IMG/VR virus record: IMGVR_UViG_3300029305_005724 | Location: 1-64,000 of that record | DNA length: 64,000 nucleotides | Reading direction: 5' to 3' (one strand) | Source of the DNA: a virus | Taxonomy: Duplodnaviria > Caudoviricetes | Shown here: in pieces, positions 22-7,709 of the stretch | Position numbering within the stretch: the stretch's first letter is position 1 | How the letters are laid out: each line of letters opens with the position of its first letter | Notes under the pieces: generated by a model | What the model was told of the DNA's origin: nothing | The model's input: the letters and a program-made list of their open reading frames with translations, nothing else | Database searches by the model: none | Program-made: the position numbers and the translations under genes

Positions 22-1545
22 ATGGGACAAAGTATAATTAGCCGAAATAACCCTGCTGCTAGCGGGGATAAAATCGGAGATATTAAATTTACTCAGAGAG
101 AATTGAATGATGACTGGGTAAAATGTGATGGATCGATGGTAGATCCTAATGTTATAAGTAATAAGTATGCTAAATTAGCAGAAAGCGATGTATTTATTAA
201 TGGGCAGTGTAAATCAACTAATAATTATTCTATGATGAGTGATAGCATGAAAGCCAAGTATGATACGTGCACTGGTACTTGGGATGGTCTGATATTTTTC
301 TGGGACAATGGCGAGCAGAGAGGTAGCGGATTTATAAATTGCGAAAAAATAGAAGGATATATAAAATTTATTCCTAAAATTATTCTTGAAAATATAAATC
401 TCGATATCATAGAATTAGAACTTCCATCTATTAACATGGGATATACAGATGAAGAGTATCAAGAAGCAGAAACAGAATGGGGTTCATGGTATTCTAATCC
501 TGATATTACTATTAAAGATTGCGTATGTAAAAATAATATTATTGGAGTAGCATTGCATATATATAATAGTTATAGTATATATGGTGAAACTTCTGAGGAT
601 ACTATATATTTAAATACTATTGACATAGCTTCTAATAGCAATACGTATAAGATATGGACTGTTGCATCTTCTAATGGTCATAATAATTTAGTTAATTATT
701 CATATATTAAATTTAGCAAAAATCTTAACAAAGCTATATGTTTCATTGCTGGGGTTGATTATTACGGTGTGCGCAATTCTCTTAATATATATGATTTAAA
801 TAGTTCAACTATACAATATATAAACTTAGATGATTCCGTTTTTTCAATAGATTCTGATGGTACGGCGAATACATGTAGTTGTATACTGTCGGCTACAGAT
901 GAAAATGCATATGCATTACTATATTATAATGGTGATTATATGCCAAATGCCTCTGGTAGCTATGGTAAATATTACTATGCAGCAGTATATTCAACAGACG
1001 GAAGTGTTAGTGAACTATATAATCTCGATCTTAGAGATGGATCTGGTGGCCCAGCATATTCTATAAATAGTGCAACCCCAATTGCAGTAGACGAGTATGG
1101 AAGTGGTATGCTTGTCCATTATGGATATGGAGAAATGGATCATAATGGACGTGCTTATTTATACTATGATAATGAAAATAATGAACTCTCAAGGATTTCT
1201 ATATTTAATAATTATTATGAAAATGCTGCTGATGCTCCCGATTGGGATTATCATAATAAGACAGCGTATGTTTTAGAAAGTAAATATACTAAAGCATATG
1301 TATGTAAAATGACCGGAAGTACAACAGGCTATTTTATAAAAGATATTACAAATCTTAAAAGCTCTGAAATTATTGACTTGCTCAAATTTGATTATTCTCC
1401 TGATGATTCCTGGGCTGCTTCAAGTGACAAATTTGCAGTAAATAAAGATTTCGGCGATGCCTCTATTCTTATTCATAATGGGAAAATTTATGGTCCATCT
1501 TATCCCAATCTCAATGATGAGAATGCATATGTAAAGGTTAAATAA
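22..1545 (+). CDS. Tail-collar-domain fibre / receptor-binding protein, paralog 1 (no homopolymer tract)
   Basis: N-terminal GDIKFTQR..W.KCDG collar-like motif and C-terminal P..P....AYVK shared with paralogs at 2578 and 5724; aromatic/Asn-rich variable middle. Confidence 0.65.
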   Translation: MGQSIISRNNPAASGDKIGDIKFTQRELNDDWVKCDGSMVDPNVISNKYAKLAESDVFINGQCKSTNNYSMMSDSMKAKYDTCTGTWDGLIFFWDNGEQRGSGFINCEKIEGYIKFIPKIILENINLDIIELELPSINMGYTDEEYQEAETEWGSWYSNPDITIKDCVCKNNIIGVALHIYNSYSIYGETSEDTIYLNTIDIASNSNTYKIWTVASSNGHNNLVNYSYIKFSKNLNKAICFIAGVDYYGVRNSLNIYDLNSSTIQYINLDDSVFSIDSDGTANTCSCILSATDENAYALLYYNGDYMPNASGSYGKYYYAAVYSTDGSVSELYNLDLRDGSGGPAYSINSATPIAVDEYGSGMLVHYGYGEMDHNGRAYLYYDNENNELSRISIFNNYYENAADAPDWDYHNKTAYVLESKYTKAYVCKMTGSTTGYFIKDITNLKSSEIIDLLKFDYSPDDSWAASSDKFAVNKDFGDASILIHNGKIYGPSYPNLNDENAYVKVK

Positions 1546-2577: not shown

Positions 2578-4004
2578 ATGGCTAATGCAATTCTAAGCCG
2601 AGGAAACTCCCCTATCAGGGGGGGGGGGGTAAAATAGGCGATATTAAGTACACTCAGCGTACATTAACCCCTGATTGGAAAAGGTGCGATGGTACACTTA
2701 TCGATTATATTGATATATCTCCAGAATATGCTGCACTTGCAGATGGGGATGTGTTTACTAGCGGAGAGTGTAAAACCTATCTAAATAACTATTCCAGAAT
2801 GTCTCAACAGATGAAAGACTTGTATGACTCTAAAGAGCATAGTAACGATAATTATATCTTCTTCTGGGACAATGGAAATAACCAAGGCTGTGGATTCTTG
2901 TATGAAGAATGGTCTGCAGTTCATTTTTCAAGATATATTCATATAGTCTTTGAAAAAATTGATAAAACTATTGTCGATATGAATACATTAATAGATGCTG
3001 GTAACTTTATGACTGTTGAAGATTGGAAAGGCTCACTATATTATGGATCTGAATCTCCAATATATACAAGCTTAGTGCATATATGTACATACAGAACTTG
3101 TAATAATAATTTCGCCATATTGCTTCATACGTATAAAGACTATATTAATCAAAATGGTGAAGTTTGCATTGACAATGTATATTTCTGTGGTTTAAATTTA
3201 GAAACTGGTGTATCGAATTTTAGAGTTTCTAGCACTCTAGCAGATGGTGGTGGATATGGTTCTGATATCAATAATCATAGATTTGCAATTTCAAAAAATT
3301 GTGATTCGGCATTATATATAAGTATATGGGATGTTATTGAGCATAATGATCATAAACCCGGTGTTATTAGTATAAGATTTACAAATAATATGGCATATAT
3401 TAGTGATTTTTTGTATGATTCATGGTTTAACCTGCCGCAATATTCAGACACATCATTAGTTGTAACAGAAAACGATTGCTATGGAATTGTACGATCTTAT
3501 AAAAATGATGATATTTTAGATAGTCAAGTATATCTATTTTATAGCAATAGAGATCCTATTGAATTTGAGGATGATTTTGTTGATATAGTGTTTACAAATG
3601 GTTATGCTTTACTGCATAATAATATCCCATATGTTTCTTATACTGCAACAGATTCAGCTTTAAGTACAAACGAGTACTTGATAAATATGATAGATAATAG
3701 CACTATAGTTCTTAGTTCTAGAATGGCTATTAATACTTATAAATACTATTTAGAATCTGATTATTATGAGAAAAAATATTTGATTAATAATATTGGTAGG
3801 GCTGTTGAAATTTCAGACTCTATATCTCTAGAAGAGATTGTAAATAAAGCAATGTCTGGCGGTGATATATCTTTAAATAGAAAACTCGTAAAAGAATATC
3901 AATTTGGTAATGAAAAATTTCTTTATTTTCCGAAAGATAAATCACTTTTTGGTCCTTCGCTTCCAGATGATGATTCTGGATATGCGTATGTAAAGACGGA
4001 ATAA
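2578..4004 (+). pseudogene. Tail-collar fibre paralog 2, frameshifted (phase-OFF) at a G12 tract
   Basis: ATG 2578 (MANAILSRGNSPIRGGG) runs into TAG 2635-2637; the -1 frame continues KIGDIKYTQRTLTPDWKRCDG into ORF 2751..4004; G10 or G13 restores one gene. Confidence 0.85.
2618..2629 (+). repeat. Poly-G (G12) slippage tract
   Basis: Directly visible; unusual in an AT-rich genome. Confidence 0.95.
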
Positions 4005-4191: not shown

Positions 4192-5724
4192 TTATTTTAC
4201 TTTTACATGACCATATGTATACGTGGGAAGAGTTGGAATTGATTCCAGATTGGTAACTATACAGTTTTGAAACCACAATTCATCAGCATCTCCAAAATCT
4301 AGATCTGCATTATTTAGGGTTTCGAAACGTTTTGAACTGATTTTGTAATTATTAAGGTCTAAATTATTGATGTCTCCATCCTTGATATACCACAAATATG
4401 TGCTGGAATCATCAGTATATGCAAGATAATATTTATCCTTATAATGAATACTAAAGCATTCAACACCAGTATATCCATAATAATCGGTAATTAAAAACGG
4501 ATGATTTGCATCAACGTCCACAGCATTTATTTCATTTCCTTCATTATTACAAATAGAAAGCGTATTAGCAGTATAATTAGCATTAATTATATAAATATTA
4601 TTATTTATGATAAAGAAAATAGGAAGTGTAGAGTTATCATTTAACACAATCATAGAACCATTTTTTGTGCAACATCCTGATCCTGGATTTACATACGATC
4701 TCCAAGTATTATTATTTTCATATTTTGAATGAGAATAGATTGTATTGGTTAATATATCCCCATCGTAATCTAATGTAAAACTATACCAAGGACTATCATC
4801 TGTAACTCCATATACTGGTATTATAGTTGAAAAGCTGTTATTGCTAAAATTCATGCCTATAGAGTTAGGATGACTAAATGATGCTCCATAGCCATCATTA
4901 ATATCAATATCTATATCTGTTTTTATATCAAATATAAAAGAACTATTTTTATCAATTGTATTCAACACAGAGCTTCTTAATTCGATTCTAAAATTAAGTT
5001 TTTCTTCAATATTTGACTCATAAGCTTGATCTATCGTTTCACTGGATAAATTTCCACAAACAGCGGCCGAGTCATCTTTAACATATGATATAGATTGTAT
5101 AGCATTATAATTATCATCAGTAAATACGACATTTATCATAAATAGCCTAATATCTATACATATAGTACTATTATTTAAATTAAACTGATCGTCCTGAACC
5201 CAGTTTAATTCTAAATTTATTTCGCTACTATTAGCCATTGCTACTATAATAAGTGTTCTTGAACTTTTGTCTAATCTATGAGCTATGATTTTAATATTAC
5301 TACCAGGGATGGATGAATCTCCAAAAATACCTCTGGTTTCTTTAACACCATTATTTATCATAGCAATACTTAGTCCTTCTTGATAATTTAACAGAGCATA
5401 GCGAATAAAATTGTCACTGTCTATATAATAATTTTGATCGAAGAAACTAAATGATTCCTCTGGATTAAGGGTTGTTAAATCAAAATCCTCATATCCTATA
5501 TATTTTTCATTTATCGTAGAATCCAATAGATCCTTTGTTCCGGCAGAATCTTTCGAAACTAAATTCATATATTCTTCACTGGCTCTATCAAGATCTATCT
5601 CAGAGCCATCACATTCTAAAAGTCCATCTTCGAGGTCAGTACGTTGCGTGAACTTAATATCACCGATGTACCCCCCCCCCTGAGATGTTTTCGTACTTCG
5701 GCTAATTATCATTCCATGTGCCAT
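4192..5724 (-). CDS. Tail-collar fibre paralog 3, in frame (phase-ON) through a G10 tract
   Basis: MAHGMIISRSTKTSQGGGYIGDIKFTQR...ECDG; C-terminus PTLP...GHVKVK. Confidence 0.7.
   Translation of the reverse strand: MAHGMIISRSTKTSQGGGYIGDIKFTQRTDLEDGLLECDGSEIDLDRASEEYMNLVSKDSAGTKDLLDSTINEKYIGYEDFDLTTLNPEESFSFFDQNYYIDSDNFIRYALLNYQEGLSIAMINNGVKETRGIFGDSSIPGSNIKIIAHRLDKSSRTLIIVAMANSSEINLELNWVQDDQFNLNNSTICIDIRLFMINVVFTDDNYNAIQSISYVKDDSAAVCGNLSSETIDQAYESNIEEKLNFRIELRSSVLNTIDKNSSFIFDIKTDIDIDINDGYGASFSHPNSIGMNFSNNSFSTIIPVYGVTDDSPWYSFTLDYDGDILTNTIYSHSKYENNNTWRSYVNPGSGCCTKNGSMIVLNDNSTLPIFFIINNNIYIINANYTANTLSICNNEGNEINAVDVDANHPFLITDYYGYTGVECFSIHYKDKYYLAYTDDSSTYLWYIKDGDINNLDLNNYKISSKRFETLNNADLDFGDADELWFQNCIVTNLESIPTLPTYTYGHVKVK
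5671..5680 (-). repeat. Poly-G (G10 on the coding strand) slippage tract
   Basis: C10 on + strand, same position relative to the GDIK motif as the G12 tract. Confidence 0.95.
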
Positions 5725-5829
5725 AAAAGTTTCCTCACTTTCATTTATATTTTATAAAAAAAAATAAATAAGAGATGGTAAATATGTTTACCACCTCCAG
5801 AATTTTATTAAAATGTTCAAATCATAAAA

Positions 5830-5861
5830 AAGAAAGGAGAGTAATATTACTCTCCTTTCTT
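5830..5861 (-). terminator. Terminator closing the RAMP + repeat-RNA unit
   Basis: Perfect palindrome aagaaaggagagtaat/attactctcctttctt with a T-run on the minus strand. Confidence 0.8.
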
Positions 5862-6545
5862 CCGTTCAGATACTCTGCTGTCCACAACTGTACTGGTCGG
5901 AGCTCAGCCGATTCAAGTCGCTAGTTTTCTGTGATGTTCTCTTCTTTCCCGTATCTATTCCGCTACTTTCGTAGGCTTTCTTCGCCTCTCCTTTTCGAAA
6001 CATTACGTGACTTTTCCATCCCAACTCAGCTCTCGTTATTTCTTATGCTTGCTCCTCCCTATCGACGCAATTCTGCAGATCTCCCTGCCTCTCCATATCT
6101 AAACTTTTCAGATTGAGCTATTTCGTCTGCTAGGCATGTCTTTTCCTGCTCGCTTAACCTCAAATCTGATCCTTTGCCGCGCGTTTTGTTTCCTGTCGTC
6201 GCCATCCCATGGCTCCTCACTACTTCTCCACGCCACTCGGTTCGCTTGAGTATCTTATCTAATCCACCTCATTTGAGTTTAGATCATCTAACTTCCCAGC
6301 TTCCCCGTAGCCTTTCGCCGTGACTCATTTTGAATCCACGCCATTCCATGGCTATTCAAGACTAGTATGTTCAACTCCGCTTCAATTTTTGTCTTTTCAA
6401 ATCTAGTCCATCTCTAGTGAACTCCCGTCAACTCCTAGCCATTTCTTTTATCGGCTGATTGTCTCCGGTCTACTCCACATCACGTCGGATGCATTCGATT
6501 AAACTCCTCGCCTTTCCATCTGACTTCCCAGCGTTTCCGTATCTT
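5862..6545 (-). ncRNA. Candidate RAMP-associated degenerate repeat RNA array
   Basis: Non-coding, GC-richer than flanks, purine-rich on minus strand, apparent ~5-nt periodicity, recurring 10-14 nt blocks; lies between the RAMP stop and a terminator. Confidence 0.55.
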
Positions 6546-6606
6546 TTTAATAAACCTGAAGAATATTCTTACGGTTTGAAATAATTCTTCTCTTAATCAG
6601 AATATA

Positions 6607-7521
6607 TTAGTCTTCAGATTTATCTACAGTATAAGGAAGATATCTTTCATCAATCTCTCTCCAACGGCAAATTCCAAGACCAGAATTTCTCCATCCAGAA
6701 AGCCCATGTACTGCTGCATAATTAAGCCACTCAATAATAGCGGGCTTAAACTTCAACGAAGTCATACCGATAGTAAATCTGATACGGCTTCCCGCGGGAA
6801 TCATTTCGCTAGCGGCAATTGCAACTCTTTCACCACTAGGACCACTTGTTCGAAGACAACGCTGAACAATTCTAAGATTTCCATTTTCATCTCTTGAAGG
6901 AATCATGGTGACTCCGTCATCGTCAAGATAAAAATCAGGAATCTTAATAGGAATGCGTCGAGGAAATACAAAAATGCATCCATCGACGACCTTTTTATAG
7001 GCTTTAATTTTAGAAGATTCTGTTGCGGTGGATTTCTTTCCATTCTCATCAGTATCTTCTGCTTTAGACAGCAATCCACAAGAATCTTTAAAGAATCCGC
7101 GAAGCTGATAATTGTAGTAGAAAGGCATGTTTTCTTTCTTCTCATAAATACGAGGATTAGTCACATCGTCTCTACTCTTCTTACGATAGTATTTTTCATC
7201 TATGATCTCAATATCAGAATCGAGAGTATCCTCAAATTTCTGCAAACTGGTATCATAGAGAAATGTACCTTTAGGATATACGCAAAGCTGCTTATCCATA
7301 ACACCATCAGTGCCAATAGCAGCAATCTCTTCTTCCATAGACCTTGCATCAGGTGCCTTGGAAGCTATGTATTCGCCCAGAATATCTTTATTATTAGGGC
7401 TTGTTCCGAGTGCTTTTTCAAGCCACTCCATTTCCACATGCATGTAGTGCATAGGAATTTTGAGTTCTGCTGTAGAGCTCCATGCTCCGCCATTTACGAT
7501 AGTTGTTTCTTTAGTACTCAT
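6607..7521 (-). CDS. Stand-alone Cas7/RAMP-like protein
   Basis: N-terminal beta-strand + LGT.P, 'YQLRGFFKD' helix, QR.LR...G.R..IA.SE.IPAG, C-terminal Gly-rich loop HGLSGWRNSGLG; start MSTKE with RBS. Confidence 0.7.
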   Translation of the reverse strand: MSTKETTIVNGGAWSSTAELKIPMHYMHVEMEWLEKALGTSPNNKDILGEYIASKAPDARSMEEEIAAIGTDGVMDKQLCVYPKGTFLYDTSLQKFEDTLDSDIEIIDEKYYRKKSRDDVTNPRIYEKKENMPFYYNYQLRGFFKDSCGLLSKAEDTDENGKKSTATESSKIKAYKKVVDGCIFVFPRRIPIKIPDFYLDDDGVTMIPSRDENGNLRIVQRCLRTSGPSGERVAIAASEMIPAGSRIRFTIGMTSLKFKPAIIEWLNYAAVHGLSGWRNSGLGICRWREIDERYLPYTVDKSED

Positions 7522-7709
7522 TTTTCTTCTCCTTTTCATTTGGTAGTTTTAGGATTTTACAAAGGATAGTTGTACTATTTTCTATCTTTGTCAATATTAT
7601 AATATATGATGGAAATTTAATTTCAAATAAGCATATACTATATTTATAGAAAGGGCGTAATCTAAAGCCCTAAAAATATCCACAAAAATAAAATAAAGGA
7701 GAATGAAAA

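What the first reader, a model, noticed from the sequence alone, without database searches (positions are those of the whole stretch)
5830..7610. Stand-alone Cas7/RAMP-like gene co-transcribed with a ~680-nt degenerate short-period repeat RNA
Seen: a minus-strand unit with an early-type promoter (~7593-7610), a 304-aa ORF with a RAMP-type C-terminal Gly loop (GLSGWRNSGLG), then 5862-6545 of non-coding, GC-richer, purine-rich sequence, then a strong terminator. The RNA strand reads in loose pentamers (e.g. GGA-AA GGC-GA GGA-GT ... CGA-CG TGA-TG TGG-AG TAG-AC CGG-AG). Blocks recur: GCCATGG(A/G)ATGGCG (6339-6352, 6200-6213), GCTGGGAAGT (6523-6532, 6291-6300), GATGGAAA(G/A)G (6511-6520, 6011-6020). 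No other cas genes and no repeat-spacer array are present. Established: Cas7-family RAMPs polymerise along guide RNAs at a fixed nucleotide step. Inference: a minimal RNA-guided system whose guides are encoded by the periodic array. I recall recent reports of phage RAMP + pentamer-repeat RNA (VIPR-like) systems, unverified here; this array looks much more degenerate than a GGY-NN pattern and could be a new variant.
Basis: partly seen in the sequence, partly recalled or inferred. Interest (0 to 1): 0.85.

Follow-up and report, generated by a model that had tools for sequence, protein, structure and literature searches.

The report
Jumbo-phage VIPR guides spelling host genes
A cattle-gut jumbo phage carries a VIPR system (a CRISPR-related RNA-guided DNA binder first described in 2026); here each five-base guide unit holds three target bases instead of the published two, and two of its 21 guides spell conserved pieces of bacterial RNA-polymerase and pyruvate-oxidation genes, which points to a variant code aimed at the host.

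Summary
ORF 7521-6607(-) folds as a RAMP/Cas7 protein, the 224-kb phage record shows no cas1 or CRISPR array, and the tract behind the gene has strong 5-nt periodicity (z 7.4). It parses into 21 segments of 5n+1 nt: G, then [GA+NNN] repeated 3-8 times. Nine other jumbo-phage homologue loci share this layout. It is a VIPR system (bioRxiv 2026.04.26.720920) of the staggered-array, non-GGY kind.

Read as contiguous triplets, one window guide spells the RpoB motif MDQNNP (16/18 nt; 17/18 in sister strains). Another matches the pyruvate:ferredoxin oxidoreductase motif MIPNMY 15/15. Guides of related phages hit a second rpoB site and HTH_26 regulator genes, all sense. Ranked on the first two bases only, the third base still matches (13/17, p about 3e-5), so the base that published VIPRs skip is encoded here. 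Whether it pairs, or is a trace of how guides are copied, is open. Nineteen of 21 guides have no target found, the host is unknown, and there are no RNA data. This scan noted the three-base reading before, apparently on a related phage (e1-5647516); I re-tested it. Verdict: new variant of a known kind.

The parts
7590..7607 (-). Conserved promoter-like motif (consensus about ATAYTATAAT-NN-TGA) upstream of vipr
   Evidence: present upstream in the window and 8 of 9 homologue loci, (by eye); activity not tested
6607..7521 (-). vipr gene, 304 aa: RAMP fold with G-loop; N-terminal extension and two hairpin insertions (about residues 84-131 and 195-215) compared with 200-aa prophage relatives
6545..6606 (-). 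Leader of the array: conserved A-rich motif right after the stop codon, then a weak hairpin
   Evidence: the motif recurs in 7 homologue loci of the closest clade; fold energies only -6 to -16 kcal/mol
5849..6544 (-). Staggered vrRNA array: 21 segments of 5n+1 nt (16-41 nt), each G + [GA+NNN] x 3-8
6173..6208 (-). Guide whose triplets spell RpoB MDQNN(P/A); the window allele has one mismatch, sister strains carry Pro codons
5884..5909 (-). Guide whose 15 decoded bases match the pyruvate:ferredoxin oxidoreductase motif MIPNMY exactly
6477..6517 (-). Guide that decodes to a Shine-Dalgarno sequence plus ATG; a like guide sits second in the L001 array; target gene not found
6307..6347 (-). Guide shared or overlapping with guides of L001 and L176; target not found
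5828..5863 (-). Intrinsic terminator closing the unit
   Evidence: similar hairpin plus U-tract ends the homologous arrays

Best explanation
This is a VIPR system of a Clostridia-type jumbo phage. Shown: a lone RAMP-fold gene and, behind it, 21 guide segments of the form G+[GA NNN]n. Shown for a few guides: the triplets, joined without gaps, equal the sense strand of bacterial genes (rpoB, pyruvate:ferredoxin oxidoreductase; in related phages also rpoB and HTH_26 regulators). Inferred from published VIPR structures: gene and array are transcribed together, the array is cut at the +1 slips into 21-41 nt guides, and one Vipr protomer binds each five-base unit. The filament then pairs with the template strand of double-stranded DNA at five RNA bases per three DNA bases and blocks transcription without cutting. 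Inferred here: the first G of the published GGY motif is freed (SUSP1 D177, which reads it, is Gly here) and carries the complement of the base that type II skips. Inferred function: a phage with an RNA-polymerase subunit gene of its own damps host genes and regulators of host or resident elements during infection. Whether the third base really pairs I put at about 40%.
For: Fold: pLDDT 86, top structural matches all Cas7/Csm3/Cmr RAMPs (Foldseek E 1e-6; VIA Z 11.3, rmsd 4.1 over 165). Periodicity and grammar conserved in 9 homologue loci and, with GC for GA, in 185 of 194 prophage loci. The three variable positions have similar, near-flat base make-up while the two constant ones are 73% G and 70% A. 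Against three rpoB loci from genomes chosen for other reasons, the top four of 154 guides are exactly the rpoB ones, best 22/24 with shuffle maximum 18. A joint 34-nt pattern from two phages' guides hits 20 of 81 Oscillospiraceae genomes, control 0. The PFOR guide is exact in 6 of 101 Clostridia genomes, control 0; 5 of 5 checked are the PFOR motif. In the 200 most codon-adapted genes of one genome the three best z-scores (7.8, 5.9, 4.9) are these sense hits; the antisense maximum is 3.2. Third base with ranking on two bases only: 7/8 and 6/9 against a background of 0.21-0.29. The phage itself lacks these bacterial motifs and has an Rpb2-domain gene.
Against: No RNA data. Nineteen of 21 window guides have no target. 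Genome-wide excess in one non-host genome is only modest (7 exact matches of 15 nt or more against 3.0-3.5) and absent at peptide level. The window's own rpoB guide carries a mismatch. The third-base test rests on two guides from homologues (L176, L007), not from the window, and the target genes were first spotted by eye. Sequence likeness to the only characterised Vipr I could fetch (SUSP1) is limited to the G-loop (hhalign E 0.028, probability 1.8%). Guides of 4-8 units are shorter than the published 9-16, and inner units keep GA in only 35-55% of cases. The host is not identified.
Confidence: 0.6

Rival explanations
1. Ordinary VIPR chemistry (two bases pair, third skipped). The third base matches only because guides are made by copying a target three bases at a time with two constant bases put in between, as every sixth base of a CRISPR spacer matches without pairing. 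Host-gene guides may then be by-products of copying abundant transcripts.
For: Published structures show the thumb flipping out the skipped DNA base and all three constant RNA bases (10.64898/2026.04.26.720927). All recognised matches are sense, and rpoB and PFOR rank 70 and 4 by codon adaptation. One rpoB allele has drifted.
Against: Different phages converge on the same genes in different registers (rpoB in three, the HTH_26 5' end in three), which suggests selection. The third base does not vary more among strains than the first two (13/688 against 25/1388, Fisher p 0.86), though counts are low. The template-copy part is compatible with the best explanation and is not excluded.
Confidence: 0.3
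2. The main targets are rival phages, prophages or integrative elements, as in published VIPRs; the host-gene matches are a minority, or decoys, and do not reflect host shut-off.
For: Most guides find no conserved host gene in 100-250 Clostridia genomes. HTH_26 regulators are often on mobile elements (own knowledge). Published targets are satellites and prophages.
Against: Four exact scans of IMG/VR with decoded guides found nothing. rpoB and PFOR are core chromosomal genes and recur across phages.
Confidence: 0.25
3. The array is a decayed relic or a structural RNA scaffold, and the gene matches are chance.
For: Inner units are degenerate; many short strings were searched; genome-wide enrichment is weak.
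Against: Gene, promoter motif, leader, grammar and terminator are kept in ten jumbo-phage lineages with different guide contents. A 22/24 and a 17/18 match in one gene and a 15/15 match in a conserved motif exceed the controls. No Rfam family fits.
Confidence: 0.05

Closest known systems
VIPR systems with staggered vrRNA arrays and alternative repeats (NNNGG, YNNNG, NNNNG), bioRxiv 10.64898/2026.04.26.720920 (methods, legends of figs S17, S18)
   Same: Lone RAMP gene in a phage, pentamer-period array beside it, one invariant G per unit (runs of up to 9 NNNNG units), a one-base register shift at guide boundaries, no cas genes.
   Different: The text reports NN codes with a one-base skip for all types, or 'a related consensus'; it does not report three informative bases, an A after the G, 4-8 unit guides, a 300-aa Vipr with insertions, or core host genes as targets. 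Figures and data files were not visible, so the type number cannot be assigned and overlap cannot be excluded.
Type II VIPR of Escherichia phage SUSP1 (structures 10.64898/2026.04.26.720927; biology 10.64898/2026.10.15.759431)
   Same: RAMP fold with a G-loop Trp-Arg pair (W178-R179 = W277-R278 here); five RNA bases per three DNA bases; no nuclease partner.
   Different: GGY/NN with 9-16 units and a pseudoknot tail per guide, vap1 partner, satellite targets with the skip on wobble positions. Here GA/NNN, no tail, no conserved adjacent partner, D177 replaced by Gly, third base in mixed codon registers.
About 200-aa Vipr-like proteins of Oscillospiraceae/Lachnospiraceae prophages (35-41% identical)
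   Same: Same grammar: G + five-base units, 5-7 units per segment, +1 slip, free first position.
   Different: Constant pair GC (96% G, 62% C), Gln before the G-loop Trp; 766 guides gave no rpoB, PFOR or HTH hit with an agreeing third base.
Class 1 CRISPR Cas7 (type VII Cas7, Csm3, type IV-B Csf2)
   Same: Fold and G-loop; filament on a guide; complementary but unpaired periodic base as a precedent (own knowledge).
   Different: No repeat-spacer array, no cas1 or other cas genes found; period 5 with inserted constant bases.

Membership tests
VIPR | RAMP protein with RRM core, thumb and G-loop | tested here: met
   AF2 model and fold searches; hairpin 216-241 with invariant R221, G230 and near-invariant R224, R232; G-loop G273/W277/R278
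VIPR | Stand-alone, no CRISPR array or cas operon, mostly viral | tested here: met
   single copy in a 224-kb virus record, 90% complete; no Cas1, no CRISPR-like repeats
VIPR | Adjacent non-coding pentamer tandem array with conserved G | tested here: met
VIPR | Protein falls inside the published Vipr clade | tested here: inconclusive
   only SUSP1 Vipr could be fetched; alignment limited to the G-loop, E 0.028; the published set was not available
VIPR | Array is transcribed, processed and bound by Vipr | not testable with these tools
   no RNA holder listed; needs small-RNA sequencing and pull-down
VIPR | Three target bases per five guide bases | tested here: met
   rpoB, PFOR and HTH_26 matches are all in this register
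VIPR type II (SUSP1) | YNNGG units, at least four in tandem | tested here: not met
   longest YNNGG run is 1-2 in all eleven arrays; position after G is A in 70%
VIPR type II (SUSP1) | Skipped target base not encoded in the guide | tested here: not met
   third base matches 13/17 in hits ranked on two bases
VIPR type II (SUSP1) | vap gene in the operon and structured 3' tail per guide | tested here: not met
   immediate neighbours differ among ten loci; segments abut with no tail
VIPR, staggered-array type | End of one vrRNA is the start of the next, offset by one base | tested here: inconclusive
   a +1 slip recurs every 4-9 units, fitting the legend of fig. S18; processing sites unknown and the figure was not visible
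Class 1 CRISPR-Cas | Repeat-spacer array and further cas genes | tested here: not met

The most novel reading that the evidence does not exclude
A VIPR lineage of jumbo phages has turned the gapped code into a gap-free one: only a GA pair per unit is looped out, all three other bases pair, and 15-24 contiguous bases are read by guides of only 26-41 nt. The phage aims them at the host's own RNA polymerase and central metabolism as an RNA-programmed host shut-off. The third base would also record how such guides are written from a template.
Probability: 0.3. Interest if true: 0.85.

Novelty: new variant of a known kind. Interest (0 to 1): 0.6.

Why it matters
VIPR is the proposed forerunner of Class 1 CRISPR, and the three papers read describe no way in which its guides arise. 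Guides that keep the base that type II skips give a direct handle on that question: either the code has a gap-free form, a step towards contiguous CRISPR pairing, or guides are written by copying three template bases and adding two constant ones. Both can be tested with one protein and a 30-40 nt RNA. Targets in rpoB and PFOR would also extend VIPR from phage-versus-phage conflict to host takeover by a lytic phage. Very short guides cut from one array would suit multiplexed repression tools.

Tried and rejected
Pfam, PHROGs and NCBIfam give no family for the protein. Rfam gives nothing above chance.

Self-targeting: all skip rules (0-3) and two other registers against the phage's own genome gave chance-level, AT-rich hits only.

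Exact scans with decoded guides found nothing in IMG/VR or GTDB genomes. Class or family samples gave no excess over reversed controls for window guides 6517, 6347, 6306, 5991, 6172 and 6440 (guide 6347 gave 4 unrelated 2-mismatch hits against 0 control).

tRNA targets: five sense against no antisense hits at p 0.02 or less among 142 guides (about 3 expected), but the two window guides failed the genome test, so I do not claim them. A hit of guide 6347 in a MATE transporter loop is chance.

The whole-proteome peptide test showed no excess. Strain polymorphism did not separate pairing from relic. No RNA holder was listed, and the laid contigs only added alleles.

One search repeated (same family). 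One search returned nothing. No complex prediction was sent (filament).

Full report
Setting. The window is bases 1-64000 of a 223,865-bp virus record, 34.6% GC. It has genes for a gyrase B-like subunit, a family B polymerase, NAD ligase, a RecA-fold protein and an Rpb2-domain RNA-polymerase subunit. Runs that hold the stretch are faecal and bovine gut DNA. A Spo0A_C gene beside a homologue and relatives in Oscillospiraceae and Lachnospiraceae genomes suggest a Clostridia host (inference).

Observation. The minus strand of 5862-6545 has G autocorrelation 0.286 at lag 5 (z 7.4) and 0.20 at lag 10, unique in the genome. A motif at about 7607-7590 recurs upstream of the gene in 8 of 9 homologue loci. 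No Cas1 and no CRISPR-like repeats were found.

Protein. No profile library names it. It has 417 homologues in a word-based search and 1,944 clusters at 50% identity by profile. They split into a 270-435 aa group, whose long contigs reach 237 kb, and a roughly 200-aa group in prophages. The long form adds an N-terminal extension and two hairpin insertions. The AlphaFold model (pLDDT 86) matches type VII Cas7, Csm3, Cmr and type IV-B backbone subunits first, and the profile finds type VII Cas7 at E 1.4e-4. SUSP1 Vipr, identified by its published residues H17, D177, W178 and R179, aligns only at the G-loop. Its W-R pair is kept; D177, which reads the first G of GGY, is Gly or Ala in the long group and Gln in the short one.

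Array grammar. An HMM trained on ten arrays parses all of them into segments that start with GGA, run 4-10 units (mode 7) and end with one extra base. The window has 21 segments. By position the bases are 73% G, 70% A, then three near-flat positions, so the true register is G + [GA NNN]n and the 'extra' base is the third base of the last triplet. Tandem copies of whole segments in L004 show the segment is the unit of change. The 200-aa group has the same grammar with GC in 185 of 194 loci; L181 and L015 are intermediate. The published YNNGG criterion is not met, NNNNG is. Immediate neighbours are not conserved, so there is no vap gene; the locus keeps a fixed place near an 830-870 aa and a 130-150 aa gene.

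Decoding. The published two-base code found nothing beyond chance in the phage's own genome. Window guide 6208-6173 reads MDQNNA, and MDQNNP in sister strains, the RpoB motif. Guides of L176 and L001 spell HYGRMCPIE and HYGRMC, about 110 nt further on in the same gene. Against rpoB loci of three genomes picked for other reasons, these are the top four of 154 guides, best 22/24 with shuffle maximum 18. A joint pattern of the two sites hits 20 of 81 Oscillospiraceae genomes, control 0. Window guide 5909-5884 matches pyruvate:ferredoxin oxidoreductase 15/15. It is exact in 6 of 101 Clostridia genomes, control 0, and 5 of 5 checked lie in the motif. Guides of L176 (two), L007 and, more weakly, L001 match the 5' end of an HTH_26 regulator gene. 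In the 200 most codon-adapted genes of one genome the three best scores are these sense hits. The phage does not carry these motifs.

The third base. To avoid circularity I ranked guides on the first two bases only. The top rpoB hit (L176) has 7 of 8 third bases right and the top HTH hit (L007) 6 of 9, against 0.21-0.29 in the background and in antisense hits; 13/17 gives p about 3e-5. In the L176 rpoB guide the third base is codon position 1 (96% identity over nine loci) and the wobble falls on base 2 (71%), the reverse of the wobble-skipping reported for type II. Among the eight recognised guides the third base falls on the wobble in only two (read). Strain polymorphism is the same at all three positions. 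The 766 prophage guides gave no such hits in the same test.

Limits. Nineteen window guides have no target. The test genome is 60% GC and not the host; genome-wide excess is modest or absent. Only conserved sites can be seen in non-host genomes, so the target list is biased to core genes. The target genes were first spotted by eye, and the third-base statistic rests on two homologue guides. tRNA-like guides did not hold up. Nothing here shows transcription, processing, binding or repression.

Mechanism. By analogy with the SUSP1 structures one protomer binds each unit, with five RNA bases per three DNA bases, which is exactly the register found here. Guides equal the mRNA-like strand, so they cannot pair with mRNA and would pair with the template DNA strand. 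With no nuclease partner, a transcription block is the likely outcome (inference). A phage with its own polymerase subunit could afford to silence rpoB. The freed first position either pairs (about 40%) or merely records templated guide synthesis. Convergence of three phages each on rpoB and on HTH_26 argues that the targets are selected.

Comparison and verdict. It works like a VIPR and is very probably one (about 90%); it is not type II; it fits the staggered, NNNNG kind named in the discovery paper, whose figures I could not see. In the text of the three VIPR preprints I found no three-base code and no core host-gene targets. This scan has noted many VIPR arrays and, once, the three-base reading. 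Novelty: new variant of a known kind; interest 0.6.

Noticed in passing
window 22-1545(+), 2751-4004(+), 4192-5724(-); genome end 222439-223755(-): Several 400-510 aa paralogue-like genes; two share the start motif IISR...GDIKFTQR and none of those tested has a family match. The record's last bases are a near reverse complement of its first, so the ends may be an inverted repeat or an invertible region.
   Followed up: no
window 7607(-); genome 27150, 35557, 81215, 82156, 94027, 129507, 130505, 137965, 152678, 199826, 212156: The 11-base core of the promoter-like motif occurs 12 times in the genome; it may mark one promoter class of this phage.
   Followed up: partly
L004 3918-4576; L179 2356-3201: Whole guide segments are tandemly duplicated and then diverge (three like segments in each locus), a route of array growth.
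   Followed up: partly
L178 4077-4535(-): A phage gene with a Spo0A_C domain lies right behind the array of a homologue, pointing to a spore-forming host.
   Followed up: no
L016 1-1100, L017 1-700, L060 1900-2500: In some prophage relatives the array lies upstream of the vipr gene, in L016 about 1 kb long.
   Followed up: partly
L376 1494-1926: Two tandem HTH_26 genes of about 70 aa; guides of three phages match the 5' end of the first. What such pairs regulate was not examined.
   Followed up: partly
window 6477-6517 and L001 segment 2: Two phages with otherwise different arrays keep, as second guide, a string that reads Shine-Dalgarno plus ATG; many guides of the clade begin with ATG (18 of about 130), though this may be part of the boundary motif.
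   Followed up: partly
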